Positions 6,059-17,763 of a stretch of DNA of 64,000 nucleotides are shown in pieces. The translations under genes were made by a program, and so were the position numbers. Under the pieces are notes generated by a model. It saw only the letters and a list, made by a program, of their open reading frames with translations, was not told the DNA's origin and did no database searches. Numbering within the stretch: position 1 is the stretch's first letter; each line of letters opens with the position of its first letter. This DNA is from Thermoplasmata archaeon (GTDB lineage: Archaea; Thermoplasmatota; DTKX01; DATEUP01), in the NCBI GenBank assembly GCA_041499475.1, contig JBGQKI010000008.1:1978-65977 (forward strand), given 5' to 3'.

Positions 6059-6094
6059 GGAGGAGGGTACGAGGGGCTGGCCGGCGCCGCGGGC

Positions 6095-6481
6095 TCACTT
6101 CGCCCTGAGCCGGCGGATGAACTCTGCAGCCTCGTCCTGCGCCACGCGCATCCCCTGCTCGGTGGGGCACTTTCCCTGATAGAAGCAGTCCCCGTGCAGG
6201 GCTTCCGCGAAATACGCAAGCTGCTTGGCGAGGGCTCGGTCCATCAGCTCCAGGAACTCGCGCCGAAGCGTGTGCGCGTCGCGGCCCACGGCAGGGGCGC
6301 GCCCGTGCCGTACCATCGCGTGGTCGACGGCCTCGTTGACCGCGAGCCACGTTTTCTCCGCCGCGTCCCGGATGAGGGTCTCGTCACGCTTAGCGTAACC
6401 CCGGCGGGCCTCGTCGCGGGCGAACTCGAGGTGGTTCTCCGCAAGTCGCAGAAGGCTTTGGGGGCGGCGCGCCGCGTTCAT
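6095..6481 (-). CDS. small helical protein, PaREP1-like (possibly HEPN-related)
   Basis: Protein-like 3' portion of ORF 6095..6772, starting at internal Met (MNAARRPQSLL...). Motif LAYFAEALHGDCFYQG resembles the PaREP1 family LH..FYEG signature. The upstream part of the ORF is R/G-rich and looks non-coding. Confidence 0.4.
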   Translation of the reverse strand: MNAARRPQSLLRLAENHLEFARDEARRGYAKRDETLIRDAAEKTWLAVNEAVDHAMVRHGRAPAVGRDAHTLRREFLELMDRALAKQLAYFAEALHGDCFYQGKCPTEQGMRVAQDEAAEFIRRLRAK

Positions 6482-6514
6482 CGAGTGCCCGTCGGGAACG
6501 TGGGCAATTAAGGC

Positions 6515-7729
6515 TTGCGTGATGATAATGCGCCTTCCTTCAAGGCGCAAGGTAGTCCGGGGGATCGACGGGCCTGGATGGGAGACGTTGAACCCGCTAA
6601 GCCTTTGTCTCTCCCCGCCACCGCCAGCCTCATCCGCGTTCTGGCCTTTGTCGCGCCCGTGCCCCCCTCCAAGTCCCAAAAGGGCGCGGTCTTCGAGTGG
6701 GGCATCTCGAACCTGACGCTGTTCCTCTCGGGCGGCGACCTGCGCGTTATCCGGCCGCTCCCGGACGACCAAGATGTGGACCGGATTCTGACGCGCCTCA
6801 AAGGCCGGCGCGCATTGTTTCTACAGCTGAAAACGCGAGCCTCGATGCGGCGCCGCGACACCCTCGAGCTCTCCTTCCCGCCCATGGCCGACGCCGCGTC
6901 GCGAAAGGACCTCTACCTACTTTCAGCGGAGCTCATCCCGCGATCGCCTTGGGTTGGCTCCCGCTTCGCGTTCATCCCCGCCGCGGCGCTGCCGCGGCCG
7001 AGTCCGAGGGGCGATACGAAGCTCTTCATCCCGCTTTCGCCGGGCTCGAAGAGCAAGTGGGCGCCCTTTGTCCATGACACGGCAGAATTGGCGACGGTTC
7101 TCTCCAAAGTCCTCGACAAGGGCCCCGAGTATCCCTTCCCGCCGCCGGGCGGGCCCTCGGCGCTCGTCCGCAAGCTCTCGAACCGCGCGCAGGGGCACCT
7201 CATCGAGACGGAAATTGCGGGCCACCTCACTTGGTTCTCCGAGGGCCGCCTCCATGTGTGGTCGCCGCTCGTCGACGACTTCGGGGAGGACTTCGTGGTG
7301 GAGGACAGGGACCGTGAAGCAGTCGTCCGCATTCAGCCGAAGGGGACGGTCGGGCTCGACCGCGGGGGAGTCATCCACCTGCGAGTGCATGAGTCGACCT
7401 TTCGTCCGCGCGACTTTGATTTCCTCGTGTTCGCGAACTTCGATCCGGCGGCGGTGGCGATGACGCCCTGGGCTTTTGTGGTGAGGGCGGACGAGTTCGC
7501 GAAGCACGCTCGCTCGTACGAGGGCTACCTGCACTTCGTTGGGCGGCCGAGCCCGGCCTACAAAGGCGTGTGGAAACCATGGCTGTACCGAATCGAGGAG
7601 GTCGCTGGCGTGATCGAGACCGCGCTTGCCGTGCGCAGGGCGCGTGGGCCGGGGGCCAAGCTGCCGGCGAGCCGCGTAGAGGTCAGTACGGCGCGAGTGG
7701 AGATGACGCGCGCCCGCAGGGGCGGCTGA
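6515..7729 (+). CDS. hypothetical protein (404 aa), possible nuclease-like fold
   Basis: Long ORF with protein-like composition, divergent from the 6095..6481 gene. No recognisable family. Possible PD-(D/E)xK-like stretch VDDFGEDFVVEDRDREAVVRIQPK. Start could be the internal Met at 6578. Confidence 0.5.
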   Translation: MRDDNAPSFKAQGSPGDRRAWMGDVEPAKPLSLPATASLIRVLAFVAPVPPSKSQKGAVFEWGISNLTLFLSGGDLRVIRPLPDDQDVDRILTRLKGRRALFLQLKTRASMRRRDTLELSFPPMADAASRKDLYLLSAELIPRSPWVGSRFAFIPAAALPRPSPRGDTKLFIPLSPGSKSKWAPFVHDTAELATVLSKVLDKGPEYPFPPPGGPSALVRKLSNRAQGHLIETEIAGHLTWFSEGRLHVWSPLVDDFGEDFVVEDRDREAVVRIQPKGTVGLDRGGVIHLRVHESTFRPRDFDFLVFANFDPAAVAMTPWAFVVRADEFAKHARSYEGYLHFVGRPSPAYKGVWKPWLYRIEEVAGVIETALAVRRARGPGAKLPASRVEVSTARVEMTRARRGG

Positions 7730-7863
7730 GCACCTGAAGGTCGGTTGTCGGGTCCTCCCTTTGACGCCGCGCACGAACTCTTATGCTATCGAAGCACGGA
7801 CCCGGTTTCGCGCGCTGCACAGACGCTCGCGCGCATGTTGCGCGGACGAGGCGTGGGATCGCC

Positions 7864-9510
7864 TCATGACCGCCACCGCCGCTCGCGCTTCTCCGGAGGC
7901 GCGCTTTCAAGGGTGAGGTGCGTGGTCTTGGGCCCGGTCCCTTCGGCAAGCAGTTCTCTTACGCGCGCTTCGAGGGCCTGGTCCTCCTTGGTGACGCGAT
8001 CATGCTGCCTTACGTGCTCGGCCCACGTTTCGACGAGGAAAGACTCAACGAACCGCGTGGGGCGCGCCGTGTCGCGCGCAAGCTCCCATCTCGCCGCGCC
8101 GTCGCGCAGCCGCTGCCGGCGGATCGGCTCCATCGCCTCTGTGAACGAATCGGCAAGCTGGGGCGCGACCTCGTATTCGACCATGACAACCGTCGGGGCT
8201 CCCGCGGGCGGTTCCTCGAGCACGATGGGCTCCGCCCAGTGCCTTGCGGGCTCGAGGTCGAGGCCCTCGGCAAGCTGGAGCCGGAAGCGCACGGCCGAGA
8301 GCGTGCCCAGGGCGATCGCGGCGCCCGCGGCCAGCAGCGCTGTGGGGATACCCCAGACGCTTGCGACGGTCCCCCAGATTACGCTACCGAGAGCAAGTGA
8401 ACCCTGGAGGCTCAGCCAAAACACGGAAAGCGAGCGCCCCCGCACCCAAGCGGGCGCGGCCAACTGCGCCGCAACGGCGTGACGCGTGACGACGACGAGC
8501 CACACCGTCCCCATTCCGAAGAGAGCCGCGCAGGCGACGGGGAAGCTCGATGTGAGCCCGAGCACGACAAACCCGAGCGCAAAGAAGAGCGCGGCGCCCA
8601 CGGCGAGGCGGTCGGCCGAGTAATTGCCCTGCAGGCGCGACAGCACCACGGCCCCGGTCACGGCGCCGCCTCCAAGGCTTGCAAGCAGCGCGCCGTAACC
8701 GAGCGCGTCGAGGCCAAGCTCACGTCGGGCAACCAGCGGGATGAGTGCGAAGAGCGCGCTGCCGCCGATCATGAAACAGGCCGTCCGGACGAGCACCGCG
8801 CGCATGGCCGGCGAGTGGCGCGAATAGCGAAGGCCTGTCCGCATCGCGCCCCACACGCGCTCGGCGGAGCGCGTGGCGCGGACGGGGGGCTTGCGCCACC
8901 GGAGGAGCACGACGACGACGGCGAAGAAGGTCGCACAGTTCAGCGCAAAGGCGAATGCGGGCCCGCCGAAGGCAACGAGCAGGCCGCCAATGGCGGGGCC
9001 GACGACCCGGCCGAGGTTGAACGAGATGCTGTTGAGCGCGATCGCCCCCGGGAGGTCGCTGCGGGGCACAAGGTCGGGGAGGAGCGATTGCCACGCGCTC
9101 ACGCCGAGCGAGGTGCCAAGCCCGAGGAGGAAAATGAGGCCGAGCAGGAGCCCGGGGGTCATGAGACCAAAGCCCGCGGTGACCGCGAGCAGGCCCGAGG
9201 CGACGATCATGATCGACTGCGAGACGAGCAGCAGGCGCCTGCGGTCGACGATGTCGGCAAGCGCGCCCCCGGGGAGCGCGAGGGTGAAGAGCGCGAGGGT
9301 CGAGGAAGTCTCCACGAGCGCGATGAGGAGCGGCGAGGCCGTCATCGACGTCATCTGCCAGCCTTCGCCGACGTCCTCGACCCATGTCCCGATGTTGGTG
9401 ACGAGCTGGGCGAGCCACAGCGCGCGGAAGACGGAGTTCTGCAGCGGGGAGAGCGCCGTGGCGGGGCGCGGGGGATCAGACATGGATTGTCCCCCGGCCC
9501 ATGATAGCAC
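7864..9510 (-). CDS. MFS transporter with C-terminal cytoplasmic extension
   Basis: 548 aa, ~12 predicted TM helices. MFS signature-like GRVVGPAIGGLLVAFGGP and DIVDRRRLLLVSQS. Alternative start MSDPPRP. Confidence 0.85.
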   Translation of the reverse strand: MLSWAGGQSMSDPPRPATALSPLQNSVFRALWLAQLVTNIGTWVEDVGEGWQMTSMTASPLLIALVETSSTLALFTLALPGGALADIVDRRRLLLVSQSIMIVASGLLAVTAGFGLMTPGLLLGLIFLLGLGTSLGVSAWQSLLPDLVPRSDLPGAIALNSISFNLGRVVGPAIGGLLVAFGGPAFAFALNCATFFAVVVVLLRWRKPPVRATRSAERVWGAMRTGLRYSRHSPAMRAVLVRTACFMIGGSALFALIPLVARRELGLDALGYGALLASLGGGAVTGAVVLSRLQGNYSADRLAVGAALFFALGFVVLGLTSSFPVACAALFGMGTVWLVVVTRHAVAAQLAAPAWVRGRSLSVFWLSLQGSLALGSVIWGTVASVWGIPTALLAAGAAIALGTLSAVRFRLQLAEGLDLEPARHWAEPIVLEEPPAGAPTVVMVEYEVAPQLADSFTEAMEPIRRQRLRDGAARWELARDTARPTRFVESFLVETWAEHVRQHDRVTKEDQALEARVRELLAEGTGPKTTHLTLESAPPEKRERRWRS

Positions 9511-9856
9511 CGCTCAATTAAACGGAGGTGGCCGGCGATTGGGCTCGGGCCGCGGCGGCCTCCTCGATCTGAACCGATGGCCGCGACCAGCGTTTTCGAT
9601 TGGGGAACCCATTATAGGCCCCTTGGGTGGTGATCTGGCGTTCTTCTGTAGGGAGGTTTTTTGAAATGTATGGTTTCTCGAAGGCCTTCGGAGCAATTGG
9701 AAGCGGCAATGGCGGTCGGTCGAACGGATTGTTCCGGTCAGCCGCGGCGATAGGAATCCTCGGTGCGCTTTTGACCGGTGCGCTTCCGGTTCAGGCCGCG
9801 GTCAAAGCGGCTGGGGCGTCGCCGAGCTCATCGAACACCAGGACCTCGGCAATGCG

Positions 9857-11689
9857 GTGTTCCCACAGGTGACGGTGGACTCCTCGGGAAACGCCCTCGC
9901 CGTGTGGCTCCAGGATGACGGGGTGCACACGAACATTTGGGCGAACCGGTACCTGGTCGGGAACGGATGGGGGACCCCCAACGTGCTCGAAACAACCGCC
10001 TTTGATGCAGGTCTGCCCGATGTCGCCGGCGAGGCAAACGGCAACGCGATGGCCGTTTGGGGCCAGACGGACGGCACGCGCTACAACATCTGGGCAAACC
10101 GTTTCGTCGTCGGGACGGGCTGGGGCACGGCCACCCTCATCGAGACGGTCAACACCGCCGATGCCTTGCAGCCGCGTGTGGCCGTGGAGCCACGCGGAAA
10201 CGCCGTCGCGGTTTGGGACATGTCGGACGGGACGCGGTCGAACATATGGGCGAATTACTACACGGCGGGCACCGGCTGGGGGACGGCCGCCCTGATCGAG
10301 GCGGACAACTCGACCTACGCCCGGTCTCCGCAGGTCGCCGTCAGCCCAAAGGGGGACGCGATTGCCCTTTGGTTCCAAGGCGCTGGCGTTGGCAGCACCA
10401 TCCTCTACAACGAATACGTGGCGGATGTCGGGTGGGGCGCCGGCGGCGTTACGGTGGCCGACAGGCCTCAAAGTGTGGGGGATGTAGCGCTGGCGCAGAA
10501 CAACGGTGCCGACGCGACGTGTGTGTGGAGTGAGTGGGGAGGCGGGCGTTTCGACACATGGTCGAGCCACTTCTCGCGCGGCAGCTGGGAGAGAGCCGAG
10601 CTTATCGAGGCCGACAACGCCGGTTCGGTGAGCAACCCCCATGTCGCGATGGACGCGAGCGGGAATGCGTTCGCAGTCTGGCAACAAGGCGACGGCACCC
10701 GGGACAATATCCTTGCAAACCGGTACGTGGCAGGCGCTGGCTGGGGTCGTGCCGGCCTCATCGAGACGGATGGAGTCTTTGCCGCCAGTCCGCAAGTGGC
10801 GATGAACGCCAAGGGGGACGCAATGGCCGCCTATTTCCAAAATGATGGTTTCCGCGAGAACGTTTGGGCGAACCGTTTCGCCGCGCCGGACACAGTGGCT
10901 CCGAGCCTCTCCTTGTCCTTGCCCCTTGACGGCGCGTCGACCAACGTTTCGTCTACATGGGTCGCAGGGTTGACGGAGCCGGGCGCAGCCGTCTCGGTGG
11001 ACGGGTACGCGGCGGCGGTGGCACCCAGCGGGGCGTTTGGGCTCTTGATCCCGCTGCAACGGGGCGCGAACATCGTTACGGTAACCGCCACGGACGCCTC
11101 GGGCAACAGCATCATGGGGTCAGTCACGATCACCTTCACCGACCCGCTCCCAGGCGTTCAGCAACAGCTTGCCATTGCCCAATCGGCGCTTTCGGCGGCG
11201 CAAACGCAAGCGAGTGCCCTCGCCGCGCAAGTCAACGCATTGGGGTCCGAATTGACCGTCGCGCAGACGAACCTCACGGCGGCGCAGGACCGCCTCGACA
11301 CCCTAGCAGCCAACGCGAGCACCACGCAGGCCGAACTCACGACCGCCCGCGGGGACCTCGGGGCGGCGCAGGCGCGCGTGACCGCCCTCGAGACGAGCAT
11401 GACCGCGACGCGGAGCCAACTCGCAGAGGCACAATCGCAACTCACGGCAGCCCGCGCCGACATCAATGCGACGAAGGCGCAGCCGCCCTCGACGGGTGGC
11501 GCAGGGACGGCGACCGACGCGCAGGTCGCTTCGGCGCAAACCACCGGCCTGCTCGGGGTCCTCCTAGGGGTCATTGGGATTGCGGTCGGCGTGGCGGGAA
11601 TGATGATGGGGAGGCGGTCGATGGCGTCAAAGACGGCGCCCGCCTTGAGCGAGGCGCCGCCACCTCCGGCGAAGGAGCCGCCGAAGTAA
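9857..11689 (+). CDS. cell-surface protein: 7 tandem ~46-aa repeats (putative beta-propeller) + coiled coil + C-terminal TM anchor; N-terminal signal peptide lies in another frame (9627..~9810)
   Basis: ORF begins at GTG. Repeat unit ...V(A/T)VDxxGNAxAVWxQxDGxxxNIWANRYxxGxGWGxAxLIE... occurs 7 times. Then Q/A/T-rich heptad coiled coil, then GLLGVLLGVIGIAVGVAGMMMG TM and a basic tail. Frame-0 ORF 9627..9872 encodes a classic signal peptide (FRSAAAIGILGALLTGALPVQAAVKAAG). Confidence 0.75.
   Translation: MFPQVTVDSSGNALAVWLQDDGVHTNIWANRYLVGNGWGTPNVLETTAFDAGLPDVAGEANGNAMAVWGQTDGTRYNIWANRFVVGTGWGTATLIETVNTADALQPRVAVEPRGNAVAVWDMSDGTRSNIWANYYTAGTGWGTAALIEADNSTYARSPQVAVSPKGDAIALWFQGAGVGSTILYNEYVADVGWGAGGVTVADRPQSVGDVALAQNNGADATCVWSEWGGGRFDTWSSHFSRGSWERAELIEADNAGSVSNPHVAMDASGNAFAVWQQGDGTRDNILANRYVAGAGWGRAGLIETDGVFAASPQVAMNAKGDAMAAYFQNDGFRENVWANRFAAPDTVAPSLSLSLPLDGASTNVSSTWVAGLTEPGAAVSVDGYAAAVAPSGAFGLLIPLQRGANIVTVTATDASGNSIMGSVTITFTDPLPGVQQQLAIAQSALSAAQTQASALAAQVNALGSELTVAQTNLTAAQDRLDTLAANASTTQAELTTARGDLGAAQARVTALETSMTATRSQLAEAQSQLTAARADINATKAQPPSTGGAGTATDAQVASAQTTGLLGVLLGVIGIAVGVAGMMMGRRSMASKTAPALSEAPPPPAKEPPK
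9866..10890 (+). repeat. 7x tandem in-frame ~138-bp (46-aa) coding repeat inside the surface protein gene
   Basis: Repeated peptide signature NIWANR(Y/F)xxGxGWGxAxLIE ... PQVA(V/M) ... GNA(M/V/F)AVW, seen directly in the translation. Confidence 0.7.
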
Positions 11690-11725
11690 GGCCACGGGCG
11701 GACTGGCGCTGACTGGGCGCCGCCC

Positions 11726-11983
11726 TCAATGGCCGTAGACATTCCTTCGATGCCCTATGGCAACCACGAAGATCGTTCGTTCGGAGAGCGTCACATCCGC
11801 AATGATGCGCCAGTCGCCTACCCTGAGCTTGTAGCCTCGCGTTCCCTTCAGCGGTTCGAAGAAACGAAGCGGGTCGCCGCGAGATTTCTGCACCCGCATC
11901 AGGATACGCATTTGCACCGTCGCGTCCAAACCCGCGAGGTCGCGCCGAGCCCGGCGCGACCACTCGACCGAAAACTCGCTCAA
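11726..11983 (-). CDS. type II toxin, RelE/ParE family
   Basis: 85 aa. C-terminal motif YKLRVGDWRIIADV...RTIFVVAIGHRRNVY typical of RelE/ParE. ATGA start/stop overlap with the upstream antitoxin gene. Confidence 0.85.
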   Translation of the reverse strand: MSEFSVEWSRRARRDLAGLDATVQMRILMRVQKSRGDPLRFFEPLKGTRGYKLRVGDWRIIADVTLSERTIFVVAIGHRRNVYGH

Positions 11984-12216
11984 AGCCCGAGTTCCTTGAT
12001 GAGCTCAGCGGTGGTGTACACGCGCCCGGCTTTCACGTCGCGCCGCCCTTCGGCCACCTTGGCGGCGAAGGCTGGCGTGAATTCTAGGTCGTCCTCCTCC
12101 AGGATGTCCAGGGCGCGGTTGATCACGTCCTCGTAGGGTTGCCGGGGGTGGCTCTTGTGGCGCGCGATGCGCTTGCGCGTCGCATCGGAAAGCTGGATGG
12201 TCGTTATCTTATGCAT
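11980..12216 (-). CDS. antitoxin (ribbon-helix-helix/CopG-like N-terminus) partner of RelE
   Basis: 79 aa from internal Met 12216 (MHKITTIQLSDATRKRI..., RHH-like beta strand + helices). Stop overlaps the toxin start. TATA-like TTATCTAT 25-33 nt upstream on the minus strand. Confidence 0.7.
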   Translation of the reverse strand: MHKITTIQLSDATRKRIARHKSHPRQPYEDVINRALDILEEDDLEFTPAFAAKVAEGRRDVKAGRVYTTAELIKELGL

Positions 12217-12306
12217 ATGTGGCAGACTATAGTGTACCATAGATAAGAATTCTACGCTCAAGGCAACTGCCGATGCCGGGCGGTGGGCCATTTTGGCGGG
12301 GCCTCG

Positions 12307-12597
12307 TCACTTGCTCGCGACAATCTTGATCACCTCGCCGGCCACAAGCTTGTGGTCGGCGCTCACGAAGCGGCGGTGCCGCGCGTCGATCGTGCGGATG
12401 AAGCGGTTGCCAAGGTCGGTGTGCACCTTGAACGCGAGGTCGCGCGCGGTCGACCCTTCGGTGACGAGGTGCGCGTGGGGGAGGACGCGCCCGTCCTGGT
12501 CGGTCCAGATCCCTTCGTCCTCGAATGGGCGGGTCACTTTTTCCGGTATCCGCTTTGGCGGCTGTACACTTCGTGACTCCACAGGTAGAGCACCCAA
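12307..12597 (-). pseudogene. displaced 3'-end fragment (TGS domain) of the Ygr210-like GTPase gene, copy 1
   Basis: 12306..12487 is ~93% identical at DNA level to 16543..16722 (the 3' end of the intact GTPase gene 16543..17763). The 96-aa ORF matches the GTPase C-terminus (...LPHAHLVTEGSTARDLAFKVHTDLGN.FIR.IDARHRR.VSADHKLVAG.VIKIVASK). The 5' part is diverged and lacks the G domain. Confidence 0.8.
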
Positions 12598-12914
12598 ACG
12601 CGCACGCCCCCGAGCTCCCCGACGAGGGAGTAGTAGCCCCGCCAGCGATCGGCGAGCTCAAAACGAAAGAGATTGGGGATGTCGGGAGCGTAGTCGCGCT
12701 TCAGGTCGGTTGGCCACCTGTCCCGCGCGACGGGGTCGCCCGCCGTGAGTGGGTTGGACCTTGCACGGAACTCAAATGTCTGTAGGCTTTTCAGCCTGGC
12801 CGCGGCCGTTTGCTTGTCCGTTTGTCGCGTGCTACGCCCATCGCGCAGCCACGAGTCCCGAACGGCCTGCGCCGGGGGCGCATAGCTTAACCCGAGGAGT
12901 CTGGGTTTGGGCAT
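12534..12914 (-). CDS. putative ParE/RelE-superfamily toxin-like protein
   Basis: 126 aa. C-terminal NLFRFELADRWRGYYSLVGELGGVRVWVLYLWSHEVY aligns by eye with the ParE core (NLYRLRVGDYRIIY...LVLRIGHRKDVY). Immediately downstream (9 nt) of a small wH protein gene. Confidence 0.45.
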   Translation of the reverse strand: MPKPRLLGLSYAPPAQAVRDSWLRDGRSTRQTDKQTAAARLKSLQTFEFRARSNPLTAGDPVARDRWPTDLKRDYAPDIPNLFRFELADRWRGYYSLVGELGGVRVWVLYLWSHEVYSRQSGYRKK

Positions 12915-12923
12915 GCCGCGGTC

Positions 12924-13184
12924 CTATGCCGCGCGGAGCTTTCGTACGGTGGCGGCCCCCGCGCGAATCCAAAGCACTTTGCCGCCTGGCCCCTCGTCGT
13001 AAACCATCTCGTGTTCGGCCATGTAGTCGAGAGCCTCGTCAAGGAGGGGCGCCGCGACCCGGTTGCCGAGGTCCTTGCGGATCTGATAGCGGCTGAGCGG
13101 GACCGCCGCCTTCCGAAGCACGTCCTCGACGGCGCGCAGGGTGGCCGTGGTCGGCCCACGCGTTACCAGCTGGCTTGTCGACAT
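12924..13184 (-). CDS. small winged-helix-like protein, candidate antitoxin/regulator
   Basis: 86 aa. Strong archaeal promoter: TATATTAA (plus 13208..13215, minus-strand TATA) ~25-30 nt upstream of ATG 13184 inside a locally AT-rich patch. Gene order is that of a TA pair. Confidence 0.5.
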   Translation of the reverse strand: MSTSQLVTRGPTTATLRAVEDVLRKAAVPLSRYQIRKDLGNRVAAPLLDEALDYMAEHEMVYDEGPGGKVLWIRAGAATVRKLRAA

Positions 13185-13207
13185 CGACCCTTACTCACGG
13201 GGCTAAG

Positions 13208-13215
13208 TATATTAA
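13208..13215 (-). promoter_or_regulatory. archaeal TATA box for the 12924..13184 gene (leaderless mRNA)
   Basis: AT-rich island aagtatattaattcattcattaacgaattcg in a 70% GC background. Spacing to the ATG is consistent with TATA at about -27. Confidence 0.5.
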
Positions 13216-13246
13216 TTCATTCATTAACGAATTCGTGTATGCCACG

Positions 13247-13352
13247 CCTCACTTGCTCGCGACGATCTTGGTGAGATCGCCGGCCACAAGTTTGTGGTCG
13301 GCGTTCACGACGCGCCGGTGCCGCGCGTCGATCGCGCGGATGAAGTGGTTCC
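13247..13352 (-). repeat. second displaced copy (copy 2) of the GTPase gene 3' end (~105 bp, no intact ORF)
   Basis: ctcacttgctcgcgacgatcttgg...gatgaagtggtt is near-identical to 16542..16648; similarity decays after ~13352. Confidence 0.8.
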
Positions 13353-13418
13353 CCAGCTCGGGGTGGACCTCGATTTCGCACGCCGTGGGGCGCCATCGCG
13401 GTCGCCTCACCTCGTTCG

Positions 13419-16217
13419 CTAGGGCCCCAGGGGCCGCCCTAGCCGCGGGCTAAGGGAGGCATCAAGTGCGCTCTGGCGTCGTTGGAGGGCCGCCTCCCCT
13501 TCGAGGCCCTCTGGCCAAGCCCCCCCGGAACCGTGGGCACGGCGGCCGTGGTCAAGTGCGGCCTTCACCATGCGAAGCTCGAAGGGCCGCCAACCGACCT
13601 CTTTCCACCCCTGCGAAGAAGCCCCGTACAACAACGCCGCTGCCGCGGGGTCGGATTTCGCGAGTAGGTGGCCGCGCCCCATCGAGGAAAATGCCTCCAC
13701 GACGGGCCCGTCAAGGAATGTGCAAATGTGTTCCAACGACTCGAACCAACCCACGGCGGCGGCCTGGTTGCCGCGCTTCGCGTCGAGTTCGATGAGGCGC
13801 TCCACGGTCACGGCGTCGCCACCCATATCGCAGGGTCTTGACGTCTTCACCGAGAAGCCGTGGGCGGTCTCGAGGAGGGGCAGGGCTTCCTCTTCGCGCC
13901 CCTGAGCTTCGAGGGCGTTGGCAAGCGCGCGAAGAGGGGCGGTACCTGCCCACGACCAATCGAATTCTTCAGCAAGACGAACCAGGTCGCGGGCAATCCG
14001 TTCCCCGGCAACCGGGTCTCCGCCGTCCGTTTCCGCGAGGGAGATAAAGTACAGCGGGTACAGCTGGTAGGAAACGAGGCGGTCGCCGCTTGCCATCGCA
14101 GTGTATGCCGTTTCGAGGGAGTCCGCATAATCCCCGGCGCGCCACTGCACCTTGGCGACCGAAACCAAGTTCCAATTAACCAGGGCGCGGTTCTGAATCG
14201 ACTTGCCGAGGCTCAAGCCCTCGTTTGCGTGCGCGAGGGCCCGCTTCAGGTCTCCGCTGAAATGCACGTAGTGCCACGCGGCGATCGCGTGGGCAAAGGA
14301 GAGGAGCGCCAGGTCGCCGGCGCGCGATGCGAGTTCGAGGCAATGGGCCATGTGCTCGTGGGCCTCCGGAGGGGGTGTAATATGGGAAAGGACAAGTTCC
14401 ACGCGGGCTTGGAGGTTCACGTCCCCGAGCTCGATGGCAAGGGGCGCAGCTCGCCTTGCCCACTCTCCTGCAACGGATGGCGAACCGAACGCGTCCAGCC
14501 ACTTGGCGCGGGTTAGGAAGAGGCGCGCCAGTTGCGCCGGGGGCAGCGGGGGTTCCTTTGCGGCGAGTTGGTCCGCCTCACGCAGGTAATCCGAGGACGC
14601 CTCTGCGTGGGCCGCTTCGACATGGATATCGGCAAGTTGGATGAGGACAGGGGCCACCGCGCCGCGCCCCGCTCCCGAGCGCCGCGCAATCTGCAAGGCC
14701 TCCCGCCCCCGCGCGATCGCGGCGCCGTACTGCATGAGGTCGAAGTGCGCGTCGGCGAGCCCGACCAGGATCGACCCTCGGCCCGCCTCGTCCGTTGCAA
14801 GGTCGAGGGCGCTTTCGAGGAGGTCAATCCGGTACTCGGCGTCGTGGTCCTTGGCGGCCCGGCCCGCCTCGTCGAGCAGGGCTGCGAGCACCGAGGCGCT
14901 CTGGCGCCGGCCTTCCTCCTGCGGGAGCGTCCGGCGGACGAAGTCACGCACCGCGTCGTGCATCGAGACGCGGCCGCGGTCGTCGCGGCGCAACAGCGAC
15001 CGGTTTTCGAGGTCGATGAGGTCCTTCAGCGTTGCGGGCGGGGAAAGGACCACCCGGGGGTCCACCGGACGCCGGACAAAAACGACGCGGGGGAGGAGCG
15101 CGAGTTCTCCGGGCGAGAGCTTGGAGAAGATTTCGTCGTGGAGGAACCGGTCAATGTGCCGAGGGTCGGTGCGGCCTCCGGCCGCTGCACGCTCGGAGTC
15201 GCGCACGAGTTCGACGAAGAGCGGGTGGCCGGCCGTCATTTCATAGACGGAGTCCGTGCTGCCTTCGCGCTTGGCCACCTGCAGGAGGGCCGTTACACCG
15301 TCCCGGTCGAGGCCGGTGAGGTCGAATTCCGCGACCTGCCGTCGGAGCGCGACTTCGCGCGCGTCGTAGACGGGGGGCCGCACGCGCGAAAGCAGGATCA
15401 GCTTGAAGGCGTCCGGCTGCTCGCAGGCCGCCTCGCGCAGCACCCGGACGGCCATCAGCGCCTCGGGGCCGGCCGCCTGGACGTCGTCGACGAAGGCGGC
15501 CAACCGGAGTCCCTTCACGTCTTGGATGACCACTTCACGCGCCCGGGCAAGGTCCACGGGCCCTTCGCGCTTGAGCAGCAGCTGTAGGCGCGGCCGCCCG
15601 AGGGCTGCAAGCAGGCTCGCGGGGGGCTCAAGGATGGCGGTCGCGTTGTCGTACTCGCGTACCCCGTGCCAAACGACCGAACGTTCCCGCGACACCTCCT
15701 CAAACAGCCGCGCGCCGAACGTCGACTTTCCAATTCCGGCAATACCGACGACTACCACGACGGCGCGATCCTCGAGCGCCTCCCGCGCCGAGGCGAGTTC
15801 CTTCGTGCGTCCGAAAAAATATCGTGGTCGGGGCAGGCCCCGGTCCAGTCGGACGGCGCCCCCTGGTGCGGGCGACGCCGGCGGAGCGCTGCCAACGGCG
15901 GCCTTGGCGGCGTCCGGCCCAAGTTCGGCGGCCAAATGGGTCGCCGCCTGCAGGCCCGAGGGCAAAAGGAAGTACGCCTTCTGGTGGCGCTTTGCCCCTT
16001 CGACGGCCGAATCGCGTTCCTCAACAAGGCCGTCTCCGGAGAGCTTCTGCATTTCGCGCGAAATGTGGCCGGTGCGCACGCCAAGGACGGCGGCGATCCC
16101 CGTCTGGGTGAACTCTTTGGGAACCGCATATCGCTCGTGAGACGGGGGCTGATTCGCCAGGTGGAGCAGGATCCGCTCGCGCAAGGTAACGGAGGGCGGG
16201 GAGGAGGGCGCAGTCAA
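13419..16217 (-). CDS. STAND NTPase: N-terminal wHTH + NB-ARC/AAA ATPase + C-terminal TPR-like helical repeats
   Basis: 932 aa. N-terminal wHTH (FTQTGIAAVLGVRTGHISREMQKLSGDGLVEE). Walker A VVVGIAGIGKSTF. Walker B LAAFVDDVQ. Long Ala/Leu-rich helical repeat C-terminus typical of TPR sensor arms. Confidence 0.85.
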   Translation of the reverse strand: MTAPSSPPSVTLRERILLHLANQPPSHERYAVPKEFTQTGIAAVLGVRTGHISREMQKLSGDGLVEERDSAVEGAKRHQKAYFLLPSGLQAATHLAAELGPDAAKAAVGSAPPASPAPGGAVRLDRGLPRPRYFFGRTKELASAREALEDRAVVVVVGIAGIGKSTFGARLFEEVSRERSVVWHGVREYDNATAILEPPASLLAALGRPRLQLLLKREGPVDLARAREVVIQDVKGLRLAAFVDDVQAAGPEALMAVRVLREAACEQPDAFKLILLSRVRPPVYDAREVALRRQVAEFDLTGLDRDGVTALLQVAKREGSTDSVYEMTAGHPLFVELVRDSERAAAGGRTDPRHIDRFLHDEIFSKLSPGELALLPRVVFVRRPVDPRVVLSPPATLKDLIDLENRSLLRRDDRGRVSMHDAVRDFVRRTLPQEEGRRQSASVLAALLDEAGRAAKDHDAEYRIDLLESALDLATDEAGRGSILVGLADAHFDLMQYGAAIARGREALQIARRSGAGRGAVAPVLIQLADIHVEAAHAEASSDYLREADQLAAKEPPLPPAQLARLFLTRAKWLDAFGSPSVAGEWARRAAPLAIELGDVNLQARVELVLSHITPPPEAHEHMAHCLELASRAGDLALLSFAHAIAAWHYVHFSGDLKRALAHANEGLSLGKSIQNRALVNWNLVSVAKVQWRAGDYADSLETAYTAMASGDRLVSYQLYPLYFISLAETDGGDPVAGERIARDLVRLAEEFDWSWAGTAPLRALANALEAQGREEEALPLLETAHGFSVKTSRPCDMGGDAVTVERLIELDAKRGNQAAAVGWFESLEHICTFLDGPVVEAFSSMGRGHLLAKSDPAAAALLYGASSQGWKEVGWRPFELRMVKAALDHGRRAHGSGGAWPEGLEGEAALQRRQSALDASLSPRLGRPLGP

Positions 16218-16542
16218 CGCCAGGGGAGCCGCGCGCAGGACTCATAAGGCTTGCTCCGCGGGGAGAAAGGAGGGTGGAATCCTGGAATCGTCGCGGATTC
16301 CTCCGCACGAGGATCATACCCTCCCCCGGCTAAGGTGGGGATGCCAAGAGGCGAGAAAAATGGGGGTACGAACAATCAAGCTGTTGAGCGTGTTGACCGC
16401 AGTCGTTCGAACGTTTGGGAGCAACGGCGCGAAGCCGGATGCGCGGACGCGCGGGTACAACGCCCGGCAGACGATGGGGTCGCAGGTGCCCTCGTACGGG
16501 ATTTCGTCCACCCTTCCCCCGATGCGGTGAAAGGGCGGCGGC

Positions 16543-17763
16543 TCACTTGCTCGCGACGATCTTGATCACATCGCCGGCCACAAGCTTGTGGTCGGCGCTC
16601 ACGACGCGCCGGTGCCGCGCGTCGATCGCGCGGATGAAGTGGTTGCCAAGGTCGGTGTGGACCTTGAACGCGAGGTCGCGCGCGGTCGACCCTTCGGTGA
16701 CGAGGTGCGCGTGAGGCAGGACGTTGCCGTCCTTGTCGGTCCACTTGCCTTCGTCTTCGACCGGGTAAACGGGGATCAGCTTCAGCCGTTCGAACACGGC
16801 GTGCTCGAGGATACGCTGGACGCCCGTGGTGCCCCACTTCTGCAGGAACTCGCGGATCTTCTCGAGCGCTTTGGCCTGCGCCGGGTTGAGTTTCTCGGGG
16901 TGGGCGACTTCGAAGGTGGCCGCGCCAAGCGCGTATTTGATGATGCCCGCCTTCTCCGCGCGGCGCAGCGCAAGCTCCATCTCGGAGGCGACCGGGAAGA
17001 CTTCCGGCCCGAACTTTTCGCGCATCCAGTCGAGGGTATCCTTGCCGACGAGGTCGCACTTGTTCGCGGCGATGATGATGGGCTTGCCGATCCGCTGGAG
17101 GCAGGCGGCGAGCTTCATGAAGTCAGGCTCCTTCCACAAGGAGGGCTTTGCGGGGAGCGCCGCCTCGCGCAGTGCTGCGATCGTCTGCGTCTTGGTGATG
17201 CCAAGCCCGCCGACCTTTTCGTGGATCGCCTCTTCGAGCTTCTTGCCCTCGAGTTCGATGAGGCGGTGCGTCCGCTCCCACCCTTTGGAAATGATCGAGG
17301 CGAACCAGTGGTGGATTTCCTCCTCGAGGAACGCGACATCTTCGGAGGGGTCGTGACTGCCAACAGGCGCCATGTTGCCGTCGGCGTCGGTTGCGCCGGC
17401 CGCATCGACAACGTGGATTAGCACGGCGGCCTGGCGCAAGTCGTCGAGGAACTGGTTCCCCTGGCCGCGCCCCGTGTGTGCGCCCTTGACTAGCCCCGCC
17501 ACATCGATGAGTTCCACGGGGATGAGGCGTGTGCCGTTGTCGCAGGCCGAGTTCACGGGGTTGCAGGGTTTGCCGATGGCCGTGTGCGGGCATGGCGCGC
17601 GGACGAAGGCCGACCCGCGGTTGGGCTTGATCGTCGTGAAAGGGTAGTTTGCGATCTGGACATTGAGGAGCGTCGCGGCGGCGAAGAAGGTGGACTTGCC
17701 GACGTTGGGTTTGCCGACAACGCCCGCTTCCATCATGGCCTCCACGGTACGTCGCGAGCTCAA
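16543..17763 (-). CDS. Ygr210-like GTPase (Obg/YchF superfamily) with C-terminal TGS domain
   Basis: G1 motif GKPNVGKSTFF. G3 motif DVAGLV. G4 motif NKCD. C-terminal TGS-like domain. The start may be one of the internal MM/M codons (~17733-17736). Its last ~180 bp are the sequence duplicated at 12306 and 13247. Confidence 0.9.
   Translation of the reverse strand: MSSRRTVEAMMEAGVVGKPNVGKSTFFAAATLLNVQIANYPFTTIKPNRGSAFVRAPCPHTAIGKPCNPVNSACDNGTRLIPVELIDVAGLVKGAHTGRGQGNQFLDDLRQAAVLIHVVDAAGATDADGNMAPVGSHDPSEDVAFLEEEIHHWFASIISKGWERTHRLIELEGKKLEEAIHEKVGGLGITKTQTIAALREAALPAKPSLWKEPDFMKLAACLQRIGKPIIIAANKCDLVGKDTLDWMREKFGPEVFPVASEMELALRRAEKAGIIKYALGAATFEVAHPEKLNPAQAKALEKIREFLQKWGTTGVQRILEHAVFERLKLIPVYPVEDEGKWTDKDGNVLPHAHLVTEGSTARDLAFKVHTDLGNHFIRAIDARHRRVVSADHKLVAGDVIKIVASK

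What the first reader, a model, noticed from the sequence alone, without database searches (positions are those of the whole stretch)
12298..16760. Array of same-orientation copies of the 3' end of an essential-type GTPase gene, separated by accessory cargo: an integration or cassette hotspot with no integrase
The last ~180 bp of the Ygr210-like GTPase gene (16543..16722) recur as direct repeats at 12306..12487 (~93% identical; a longer diverged TGS-domain pseudo-ORF runs to 12597) and at 13247..13352. All copies have the same orientation, downstream of the intact gene. The spacers carry a ParE-like toxin plus wH partner (12534..13184) and a 932-aa STAND NTPase (13419..16217). A RelE/RHH pair (11726..12216) sits just beyond the oldest copy. 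This is the footprint expected from successive site-specific insertions into the 3' end of a protein-coding gene: the element restores the gene end and displaces the old end. Yet there is no integrase, transposase or tRNA. So these are either decayed integrated elements or a mobilisable cassette system targeting this gene end. The graded divergence of the copies (copy 3 identical, copy 1 older) suggests sequential events.
Basis: seen in the sequence. Interest (0 to 1): 0.8.

Follow-up and report, generated by a model that had tools for sequence, protein, structure and literature searches.

The report
Displaced GTPase gene ends mark insertion hotspot
In an uncultivated Thermoplasmata archaeon, small accessory gene modules have repeatedly been inserted right at the stop codon of a housekeeping GTPase gene, each time leaving the old gene end behind as a decaying relic, with no recombinase gene in sight; it is a real and tidy example of a known kind of genome hotspot, but how the insertions happen is unresolved.

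Summary
The last 223 nt and 130 nt of a YGR210-type GTPase gene recur downstream in the same orientation (91.5% and 90% identical), and both copies end at the stop codon. Related genomes show polymorphic occupancy. Two lineages have empty sites with the GTPase directly followed by PolB. Three other lineages carry their own displaced gene-end copy behind different cargo, with repeat lengths of about 190, 146 and 70 nt. Two more carry cargo without a copy. The 709-nt spacer between the window's copies is a discrete toxin-antitoxin module found elsewhere in the closest relative. Most gene-versus-copy differences are derived in the copy, so the copies are decaying relics that were near-identical to the resident gene at birth, and they were probably later homogenised by gene conversion. 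The claimed graded divergence is not supported. No integrase, transposase or tRNA was found in the 64-kb window or within 10 kb of the GTPase gene in the six relatives' loci with Pfam-annotated gene calls, and no virus or plasmid carries the gene end. My favoured mechanism is host-recombination-driven displacement, meaning homology anchoring in the GTPase gene plus an illegitimate join, as proposed for Rhs and T6SS orphan arrays. Integrase-in-trans accretion remains a serious rival. It is a new variant of a known kind and moderately interesting.

The parts
16543..17736 (-). Intact YGR210-like (YchF/OLA1-family) GTPase gene, 397 aa. The longest ORF would start at 17763; orthologues start at the MMEAG methionine.
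   Evidence: Pfam PF08438, PF01926, PF02824. Orthologues 95-70% identical in Thermoplasmata MAGs.
16543..16765 (-). Resident gene end (TGS domain), the reference unit of the repeat.
   Evidence: the repeat finder D1/D2; alignments.
16218..16542 (-). Leader or intergenic stretch between the GTPase stop and the STAND gene. It is shared with L001, and part of it is ~95% identical.
   Evidence: No Rfam hit. Fold z-scores are not significant.
13419..16217 (-). Cargo 2: STAND-type NTPase with an N-terminal HTH and C-terminal TPR repeats. It is present at the same place in L001.
   Evidence: Pfam. Colinear with L001 up to window 13452. pS 0.35 versus L001, mosaic from 0.24 to 0.56.
13249..13378 (-). 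Copy 2: displaced GTPase 3' end, 130 nt, 90% identical to the resident end, ending at TGA 13251..13249.
   Evidence: 12 of 13 differences are derived in the copy.
12532..13240 (-). Cargo 1: a self-contained two-gene module with its own AT-rich promoter. It comprises an 86-aa protein (12924..13184) and a 126-aa RelE/ParE-fold toxin (12534..12914).
   Evidence: The whole block recurs at L001 17200-17908 after MFS_3. Fold match to HigB2/YoeB/ParE. pS 0.56-0.67 versus L001, above the core value.
12307..12529 (-). Copy 1: displaced GTPase 3' end, 223 nt, 91.5% identical. It is an open 76-codon frame whose GTG (12537..12535) overlaps the toxin stop.
   Evidence: Called as a 76-aa ORF in three assemblies (P0121, P0335, P0336).
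11726..12291 (-). DUF7557 (RHH-like) antitoxin (11980..12216) plus ParE/RelE toxin (11726..11983), directly after copy 1. The 'copy + this pair' arrangement is colinear with L009.
   Evidence: Pfam. Colinearity with L009 12238-12902 at 75%. Antitoxin 94% and toxin 69% identical.
6048..11725 (.). Rest of the variable region down to the conserved PolB promoter. It holds a 610-aa surface protein (9857..11689 +), an MFS_3 transporter (7864..9510 -), an unassigned 404-aa ORF (6515..7729 +) and a PaREP1-like gene (6095..6772 -).
   Evidence: In L002, L003, L009, L010 and L116 this whole stretch is absent.
6030..6047 (-). Conserved PolB promoter motif (CCAAACCCCTATATCGCG; relatives have CGCAAAGCCCTATATCGCG). 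It is the far edge of the variable region.

Best explanation
The first few nucleotides after the stop codon of the YGR210-type GTPase gene are a lineage-specific insertion hotspot in one clade of Thermoplasmata, defined by at least 70% GTPase identity. Small accessory modules of 0.5-3.2 kb have been inserted there several times independently. They include toxin-antitoxin pairs, a STAND NTPase, and genes in the relatives that I read as SRPBCC-like (from its sequence only, no family hit) and PaREP1-like (tblastn). When the downstream join fell inside the last 70-223 nt of the gene, the old gene end was kept behind the new cargo, together with whatever followed it. That produced a same-orientation relic, and the gene itself stayed intact. 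Two such events stacked in the window give the array. All of this is shown.

The following is inferred. The relics were essentially identical to the resident gene when formed. They then decayed, and gene conversion from the resident gene partly refreshes them, which makes them look younger than they are. The insertions are made by the host's own recombination machinery and not by an element-encoded recombinase. Incoming DNA from a relative is anchored by homologous recombination in the GTPase gene and joined illegitimately at its other end. This is homology-facilitated illegitimate recombination, equivalent to the 'C-terminal displacement' route. Once a repeat pair exists, excision and Campbell-type re-integration by homologous recombination between the repeats could also operate.
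For: Hotspot and polymorphism:
- Empty sites are L010 and L116, with about 60-70 nt between the GTPase stop and the PolB start.
- Occupied sites with a displaced copy are the window (two copies), L002, L009 (same genome as L112) and L115.
- Occupied sites without a copy are L001 and L003.
- Upstream synteny is conserved in all of them.
- None of the loci with 58% or lower GTPase identity, among 110 loci screened in all (83 with at least 1.5 kb downstream), has a copy.

Original position of the copy: the L002 copy is followed by the same PolB promoter sequence that follows the gene in empty L010.

Illegitimate joins: there are five different left ends. In L009 the resident gene's last 8 nt (ANR-TAA) are derived, while its copy keeps the consensus ASK-TGA.

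Identity at birth: copy-derived versus gene-derived differences are 13:6, 12:1, 16:5 and 17:8, about the 1:0.3 ratio expected for a neutral copy against a constrained gene. The copies share lineage-specific substitutions with their own gene. The c1-c2 distance is additive through the gene.

Module mobility independent of the GTPase: the 86/126-aa module sits after MFS_3 in L001 with no repeats, and its pS exceeds the core value.

No recombinase: there is none among the 39 window ORFs scanned with Pfam (PHROGs, run on the five window ORFs left unassigned, also found none), and none in the precomputed Pfam annotations of the six fetched loci that have gene calls out to 10 kb around the GTPase gene: L001-L004, L007, L112 (= L009) (L113, L115 and L116 cover only 4.3-4.5 kb downstream; L010 has no gene calls). 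No viral contig carries the gene end or the two toxin proteins scanned for, and the gene end, the only query searched there, is on no plasmid or phage record.

Precedent: HFIR-type sequential displacement has been proposed for T6SS immunity arrays and Rhs orphans, without an integrase (PMC5361080).
Against: In 5 of 6 insertion events the upstream junction lies within a few nucleotides of the stop codon. That precision looks more like site-specific targeting than random illegitimate joining. The host-recombination model explains it only if donors already carried their cargo right at the stop.

In L009 both junctions look illegitimate, leaving a 138-nt duplication around the insert. One-sided homologous anchoring does not predict this.

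No donor sequence is available, so microhomology at the joins could only be guessed for one junction.

Gene conversion is inferred, not observed.

The window is 64 kb of an 89-kb contig from a MAG, so a recombinase elsewhere in the genome cannot be excluded.
Confidence: 0.5

Rival explanations
1. This is site-specific integration and accretion. Integrative elements (virus, plasmid, or ICE/IME-like) that use the GTPase 3' end as attB and carry a replacement gene end integrated one after another. The integrase-bearing parts were later deleted or excised, leaving cargo-only remnants flanked by att-like repeats. These would be CIME-like or tycheposon-remnant-like, and possibly still mobilisable in trans.
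For: Same-orientation repeats of the gene end flank discrete cargo. Homology stops at the stop codon in 4 of 5 copies, the classical signature of an element-borne gene end. Empty sites exist. Archaeal elements are known to integrate into 3'-distal parts of protein-coding genes and to form tandem arrays (PMC6563490). Integrase-less remnants with partial target repeats are known from tycheposon islands and from CIMEs at the fda 3' end.
Against: No recombinase was found in the 64-kb window, or within 10 kb of the GTPase gene in the six relatives' loci with gene calls to that distance. The repeats are 70-223 nt and differ in every event, whereas archaeal att sites are 8-69 bp. The only segment common to all copies is the last ~70 nt, and no conserved core or inverted binding sites were seen. 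The copies appear identical to the resident gene at birth, not diverged as an imported gene end would be. The cargo units are tiny (0.5-3.2 kb). The toxin module occurs elsewhere without these repeats. No viral, plasmid or phage record carries the gene end.
Confidence: 0.3
2. This is in-situ duplicative insertion. A break at the gene end was repaired by joining ends from two chromosome copies (the host may be polyploid), or by replication template switching. The repair captured a foreign fragment and duplicated 70-223 nt of the target on either side, producing a very long, variable target-site duplication.
For: The copies look identical to the resident gene at birth. L009 has illegitimate junctions on both sides of the insert, flanked by a 138-nt duplication. 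The duplication lengths are variable. No recombinase is present.
Against: It does not explain why the upstream junction is nearly always at the stop codon. No enzyme or break-prone motif was identified. The 14-nt palindrome CCACAAGCTTGTGG inside the repeat is not conserved in the other occupied lineages. In the window, the STAND gene seems older than copy 2, which needs gene conversion to rescue the model.
Confidence: 0.13
3. This is a simple local tandem duplication of 'gene end + toxin-antitoxin' units followed by divergence, or an assembly chimera of co-existing strains.
For: Both spacers after copies 1 and 2 encode an antitoxin and a RelE/ParE-fold toxin. MAG assemblies can be chimeric.
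Against: The two modules are unrelated in sequence. The copies differ from the gene by 9-25%, with amino-acid-changing decay, which is not strain-level variation. The same arrangements recur in independent assemblies: P0121/P0198 on one 8554-nt JGI contig, P0335 and P0336 on two different NCBI contigs, L009 versus L112, and L002 versus P0166.
Confidence: 0.04

Closest known systems
Rhs / CDI 'C-terminal displacement' and T6SS orphan immunity arrays (Jackson 2009; Poole 2011; Kirchberger 2017, PMC5361080)
   Same: Strings of displaced units, each preceded by a same-orientation fragment of the conserved upstream gene. The newest unit lies next to the intact gene. No integrase is present. Junction positions are variable. 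The proposed route is one-sided homologous recombination plus an illegitimate join.
   Different: In those systems the conserved gene is itself the toxin-delivery gene, and the variable part is its own C-terminal toxin domain plus an immunity gene. Here the gene is a housekeeping GTPase whose complete end is restored, and the cargo consists of unrelated stand-alone modules. The host is an archaeon, and nothing suggests selection for keeping the old units.
Genomic islands at tRNA/tmRNA or protein-gene 3' ends made by tyrosine integrases, including tandem arrays and integrase-less remnants (Islander; tycheposons; CIMEs at fda; archaeal elements in 3'-distal gene regions, PMC6563490)
   Same: The target gene is regenerated and a displaced fragment marks the far end of the insert. 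Successive insertions push older ones outward. Empty and occupied sites are found among relatives.
   Different: No integrase was found anywhere in the sequence examined. The repeats are far longer and of a different length in every event. There is no common core beyond the last ~70 nt. The gene end shows no sign of having been imported in a diverged form.
Phage 21 / e14 integration into the icd gene of E. coli (from my own knowledge, not checked here)
   Same: A long duplicate of more than 100 nt of the 3' end of a housekeeping protein gene lies downstream of the insert.
   Different: The icd duplicate is element-borne, carries many synonymous differences, and sits next to an integrase gene.
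Integron cassette arrays
   Same: A one-directional array of small promoter-proximal cassettes, with toxin-antitoxin pairs as common cargo.
   Different: There is no IntI, no attI, and no attC hairpins. The repeats are coding sequence of the neighbouring gene.

Membership tests
Integrase-made genomic island / accretion array at a gene 3' end | A tyrosine or serine recombinase gene in at least one element of the array | tested here: not met
   None among 39 window ORFs. None in the precomputed Pfam annotations of L001-L007 and L112-L116.
Integrase-made genomic island / accretion array at a gene 3' end | Regenerated target gene plus a displaced fragment in direct orientation at the far end of the insert | tested here: met
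Integrase-made genomic island / accretion array at a gene 3' end | One constant att core or crossover position shared by independent insertions | tested here: not met
   The left ends are 223, 130, ~190, ~146 and ~70 nt. The right end is at the stop in four cases and at -8 in L009. No conserved inverted-repeat core was found.
Integrase-made genomic island / accretion array at a gene 3' end | Empty versus occupied sites in related genomes | tested here: met
   L010 and L116 are empty.
Integrase-made genomic island / accretion array at a gene 3' end | Excised circular form with a joined att site | not testable with these tools
   This needs raw reads.
Recombinase-free sequential displacement (HFIR / Rhs-type C-terminal displacement) | Same-orientation fragments of the conserved upstream gene precede each displaced unit, and the old downstream partner is retained | tested here: met
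   Copy 1 plus the DUF7557/ParE pair is colinear with copy plus pair in L009. The L002 copy keeps the PolB promoter.
Recombinase-free sequential displacement (HFIR / Rhs-type C-terminal displacement) | Variable, non-specific distal junctions | tested here: met
   Five different left ends with no shared motif.
Recombinase-free sequential displacement (HFIR / Rhs-type C-terminal displacement) | Microhomology at the illegitimate join, and a donor-derived tract in the anchor gene | tested here: inconclusive
   Only a weak TC(C)GAAG match at the cargo1/copy1 join. There is no step in GTPase divergence along the gene versus L001. No donor is known.
Recombinase-free sequential displacement (HFIR / Rhs-type C-terminal displacement) | The locus encodes a polymorphic toxin with cognate immunity genes | tested here: not met
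   The gene is a YGR210 GTPase, and the cargo is TA pairs, a STAND NTPase and other genes.
Integron | IntI integrase, attI site, and attC hairpins bounding the cassettes | tested here: not met
   No integrase was found, and no inverted repeats lie at cargo ends.
Casposon / DNA transposon | Cas1 or a transposase, terminal inverted repeats, and a short fixed TSD | tested here: not met
   None were found, and the duplications are 70-223 nt and variable.
Type II toxin-antitoxin, RelE/ParE superfamily (cargo) | Toxin with the RelE/ParE fold, preceded by a small partner gene in one operon | tested here: met
   The 85-aa protein matches PF05016. The 126-aa protein model has pLDDT 90 and matches HigB2 at E 6e-4 and YoeB/ParE at TM 0.80. 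The partner genes overlap or abut the toxin genes. Toxic activity was not tested.
STAND NTPase anti-phage sensors (Avs-like) | STAND NTPase plus repeat sensor plus an effector domain; match to a defence-system model | tested here: not met
   NTPase and TPR domains are present. The N-terminus is an HTH, not an effector. PADLOC gives only E 8.6e-4 over 39 residues.

The most novel reading that the evidence does not exclude
An unrecognised targeting mechanism acts at the stop codon of the YGR210 GTPase gene in this Thermoplasmata clade and inserts promoter-to-stop gene modules while duplicating 70-223 nt of the target. It could be a trans-acting enzyme encoded elsewhere in the genome, or a break-prone site processed by host repair. 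This would be a cassette-acquisition route in archaea that needs neither an element-borne integrase nor att sites. A side possibility is that the displaced TGS fragments are expressed: copy 1 is an open 76-codon frame whose GTG overlaps the stop of the toxin gene.
Probability: 0.2. Interest if true: 0.7.

Novelty: new variant of a known kind. Interest (0 to 1): 0.42.

Why it matters
How small accessory modules such as toxin-antitoxin pairs move between archaeal genomes without any visible mobility gene is poorly understood. This locus offers a clean natural series: empty site, single insertion and stacked insertions, with exact junctions. In that series the host gene end serves as a landing pad and as a record of past events. 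If the insertions are made by host recombination alone, the 'displacement' logic known from bacterial polymorphic-toxin loci would extend to ordinary housekeeping genes and to Archaea. If a trans-acting recombinase is responsible, the locus gives its target. It also flags a very conserved, unannotated 126-aa RelE/ParE-fold family that is widespread in Thermoplasmata.

Tried and rejected
1. A similar duplication of the MFS_3 gene end around the toxin module in L001: the 27-nt match (D6) is chance, with no protein or DNA similarity.
2. A structured RNA in the conserved leader upstream of the STAND gene: no Rfam match, fold z-scores -1.2 and -0.6, and conservation no higher than the adjacent STAND 5' half.
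3. Orphan TGS fragments as a widespread archaeal phenomenon: the short proteins are mostly truncations. L117 abuts a 100-N scaffold gap and L118 is cut by the contig end. Only siblings of the window and of L002 are real orphans.
4. The metagenome scan with a clade alignment chose over-general patterns and returned only relatives at 58% identity or less. It was still useful as a negative control.
5. A virus or plasmid vehicle: viral-contig scans with the GTPase end, the 126-aa family and the ParE toxin found nothing, and plasmid and phage collections held only unrelated TGS domains.
6. The palindrome CCACAAGCTTGTGG (I1) as a recombination core: it is not conserved in the other occupied lineages.
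7. The two TA modules as tandem duplicates of one unit: they show no sequence similarity.
8. A recent transfer tract covering the GTPase end plus STAND: pS of the GTPase 3' third is 0.415, as for the rest of the gene.
9. Defence annotation of the cargo: PADLOC, NCBIfam and PHROGs gave nothing meaningful.
Full report
OBSERVATION. The window comes from a 67% G+C archaeal chromosome. It encodes family B and family D DNA polymerases, NOG1, TruD, TiaS and CTP-dependent riboflavin kinase. The closest GTPase homologues are from Thermoplasmata/Thermoplasmatota MAGs. The gene at 16543..17736 (-) is a YGR210-like Obg-family GTPase with a C-terminal TGS domain. Its 3' end recurs twice downstream in the same orientation. 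Copy 1 is 12307..12529 (223 nt, 91.5% identical) and copy 2 is 13249..13378 (130 nt, 90% identical). tblastn E-values within 30 kb are 1e-40 and 1e-18. All three units end at AAG-TGA, and there is no similarity after the stop.

CARGO. Between the gene and copy 2 lies a 932-aa HTH/AAA_16-nSTAND/TPR protein. Between copy 2 and copy 1 lies a two-gene module of 86 aa plus 126 aa. Neither protein matches Pfam, NCBIfam, PADLOC or PHROGs. The 126-aa protein belongs to a strikingly length-conserved family of more than 170 clusters, 60-77% identical, all Thermoplasmata or Euryarchaeota. A confident model (pLDDT 90, pTM 0.83) matches HigB2, YoeB/ParE and RelE toxins. The 'ParE-like toxin' label therefore holds at the fold level. 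After copy 1 comes a DUF7557 (RHH-like) plus ParE_toxin pair. The two toxin-antitoxin modules are unrelated to each other.

NO MOBILITY GENES. ARAGORN finds no tRNA. None of 39 ORFs covering the 64 kb matches an integrase, resolvase, transposase or Cas1. The precomputed Pfam annotations of the relatives' loci show none either: six of them have gene calls out to 10 kb around the GTPase gene, the others are shorter, and L010 has no gene calls. No IMG/VR contig encodes the GTPase end, the 126-aa family or the ParE toxin. Plasmid and phage collections contain only unrelated TGS domains.

COMPARATIVE LOCI. Upstream synteny (AIR carboxylase, GMP synthase, a 1,568-aa CARDB protein, a BNR protein, then the GTPase) is conserved. 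The downstream side is not. The states are:
- L010 (79% GTPase identity) and L116 (81%): empty. The GTPase stop is followed after about 60-70 nt by the PolB start.
- L003 (80%): one WapI-like gene and no repeat.
- L002 (82%): an inverted ParE/DUF7557 pair, then a ~190-nt copy of the gene end, then PolB.
- L009 (same genome as L112, 81%): an inverted 206-aa gene, a ~146-nt copy, a DUF7557/ParE pair, then PolB.
- L115 (72%): a PaREP1-like gene, then a ~70-nt copy.
- L001 (95%, the closest relative): the same STAND gene at the same junction, but no copies. Its 86/126-aa module lies 6 kb away, directly after an MFS_3 gene.
- L004, L007 and L113: other neighbours and no copy.
Among 110 GTPase loci, 83 of them with at least 1.5 kb downstream, extra copies occur only in this close clade. 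Independent assemblies reproduce the window's two copies (P0121 and P0198 on one JGI contig; P0335 and P0336 on NCBI contigs). They also reproduce L002's copy (P0166), and L112 matches L009. Assembly artefact is therefore excluded.

JUNCTIONS. In L002 the displaced copy is followed by the same sequence...CCCCCGCAAAGCCCTATAT, that follows the gene in the empty site. This is the PolB promoter, so the copy sits at the original chromosomal position and the insert lies upstream of it. That motif bounds the variable region in L002, L003, L009, L010 and the window. In the basal L007 lineage a homologue of the window's 610-aa surface protein follows the GTPase instead. The hotspot therefore belongs to the GTPase end and not to the GTPase-PolB pair. 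The upstream junction is within a few nucleotides of the stop in five events. In L009 it is 8 nt before the stop: the resident gene ends ANR-TAA while its copy keeps the consensus ASK-TGA. The distal junction differs in every event (223, 130, ~190, ~146, ~70 nt), and no motif is shared. The spacer between copies 2 and 1 (13240..12532) corresponds end to end, from promoter to toxin stop, to L001 17200..17908. It is a discrete unit that also exists without GTPase repeats. A suspected MFS_3-end duplication around it in L001 was chance.

HISTORY OF THE COPIES.
- Each copy is closest to its own resident gene (91.5, 90, 85 and 82%) and shares lineage-specific substitutions with it.
- Polarising gene-versus-copy differences with orthologues gives copy-derived versus gene-derived counts of 13:6, 12:1, 16:5 and 17:8. 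This is close to the ~1:0.3 expected if the two were identical at birth, with one decaying neutrally while the other evolves under constraint.
- pN/pS is 0.17-0.50 for gene versus copy and 0.08-0.22 for orthologue pairs.
- In the shared 130 nt the c1-c2 distance (15.4%) equals the sum of the two distances to the gene.
- Both window copies have pS 0.17 to the gene, and the proximal copy has more derived changes (12 versus 6). The 'graded divergence' is therefore not there.
- Core genes differ from L001 by pS 0.35-0.44 and STAND by 0.35, although STAND is mosaic from 0.24 to 0.56. The 86/126-aa module differs by 0.56-0.67, so it was not inherited vertically at these positions.
- There is a conflict. 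The copy 1 plus TA adjacency, shared with L009, implies that the TA pair followed the gene when copy 1 was displaced. The STAND junction shared with L001, however, looks older than both copies. The simplest resolution is gene conversion from the resident end onto the copies. This fits their pattern of near-identical central blocks and diverged left edges. This step is inference.

MECHANISM. What is shown:
- Recurrent, independent insertions at one spot.
- Restoration of the gene.
- Retention of the old end, together with whatever followed it.
- Stacking of two events in the window.
- Absence of any recombinase in cis.

What I infer is that the host's recombination machinery does the work. I give this 0.5. 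In this view, DNA from a relative is anchored by homologous recombination in the GTPase gene and joined illegitimately at the other end, inside the recipient's gene end. This is the route proposed for Rhs 'C-terminal displacement' and for T6SS orphan immunity arrays, which have the same architecture and also lack an integrase (PMC5361080). Selection explains why only events that keep the GTPase whole, and the downstream promoter intact, are seen.

Weak points are the near-constant upstream junction at the stop codon and the L009 case with two illegitimate joins.

The main rival, at 0.3, is accretion by integrase-bearing elements that have since been lost or act in trans. Archaeal elements do integrate into 3'-distal parts of protein genes and do form arrays (PMC6563490). 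Integrase-less remnants flanked by partial targets are known from tycheposon islands and from CIMEs. Against this rival are the five different and very long repeats (archaeal att sites are 8-69 bp), the identity at birth, the tiny cargo and the absence of any vehicle. An in-situ duplicative repair event gets 0.13. Tandem duplication or assembly artefact gets 0.04.

VERDICT. The locus is a real, polymorphic insertion hotspot marked by displaced gene ends. The architecture is of a known kind, but several features are unusual: a housekeeping GTPase in an archaeon, long variable repeats, promoter-to-stop TA cargo, and no recombinase. I therefore class it as a new variant of a known kind, with interest 0.42. 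The most novel reading not excluded is an unrecognised stop-codon-targeted cassette insertion mechanism, with probability about 0.2.

Noticed in passing
window 12534..12914 (-): The 126-aa protein belongs to a very conserved family with no Pfam, NCBIfam or PHROG model. Members are almost always exactly 126 aa, there are more than 170 clusters at 60-77% identity, and 30 columns are invariant, including NLFRFE, WRGYY and LYLW.H. The predicted fold is RelE/ParE/HigB. Conservation this tight is unusual for a toxin of a mobile TA pair.
   Followed up: partly
window 12534..12537 and 12307..12537 (-): The copy 1 frame is open for 76 codons, and its GTG start overlaps the toxin stop (GTGA), as in translationally coupled genes. 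Gene callers annotate it as a 76-aa TGS protein in three assemblies (P0121, P0335, P0336), with 0-1 amino-acid differences between them. A displaced TGS mini-protein might therefore be expressed.
   Followed up: partly
window 14350..14700 (-), inside the STAND gene: The TPR part of the STAND NTPase is only 66-73% identical to L001, with pS 0.53-0.56 and pN 0.19 for codons 500-620. The NTPase part is 90-95% identical, with pS 0.24. This indicates a mosaic or a fast-evolving sensor region.
   Followed up: partly
window 16220..16350 (-): The stretch upstream of the STAND start is ~95% identical to L001 and contains nested inverted repeats (GGAATCCGCGACGATTCC within GGAGGGT...ACCCTCC). There is no Rfam hit, and fold energy is not better than shuffles. 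It is probably a promoter, operator or leader.
   Followed up: yes
window 16530..16542 (-) versus L001 11195..11207: The first ~13 nt after the GTPase stop differ at about half the positions between the window and L001, although both flanks are 85-95% identical and the cargo is the same.
   Followed up: no
window 11980..12216 versus L009 12457..12690: The DUF7557 antitoxin is 94% identical between the window and L009. Its partner ParE toxin is only 69% identical and the GTPase 81%. This is an uneven divergence within one operon.
   Followed up: no
window 6515..7729 (+), overlapping 6095..6772 (-): A 404-aa ORF with coding-like GC3 has no match in Pfam, NCBIfam, PADLOC or PHROGs. It overlaps the 5' part of the PaREP1-like ORF on the other strand, so one of the two starts is probably wrong.
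   Followed up: partly
window 16572..16597, 12336..12361, ~13279..13300: A 26-nt near-palindrome (CGCCGACCACAAGCTTGTGGCCGGCG) lies inside the repeated coding segment. It is not conserved as a palindrome in the other lineages.
   Followed up: yes
window 9857..11689 (+): The 610-aa surface protein contains internal ~150-aa repeats (DNA repeats at 10015, 10327 and 10789) and a coiled-coil tail. A homologue lies directly after the GTPase in the L007 lineage.
   Followed up: no
L117 9900..10000: In the 3.2-Mb Methanomassiliicoccales record CP070739.1, a run of 100 N sits inside the YGR210 GTPase gene just upstream of PolB. This is why that gene is annotated as a partial TGS protein.
   Followed up: yes
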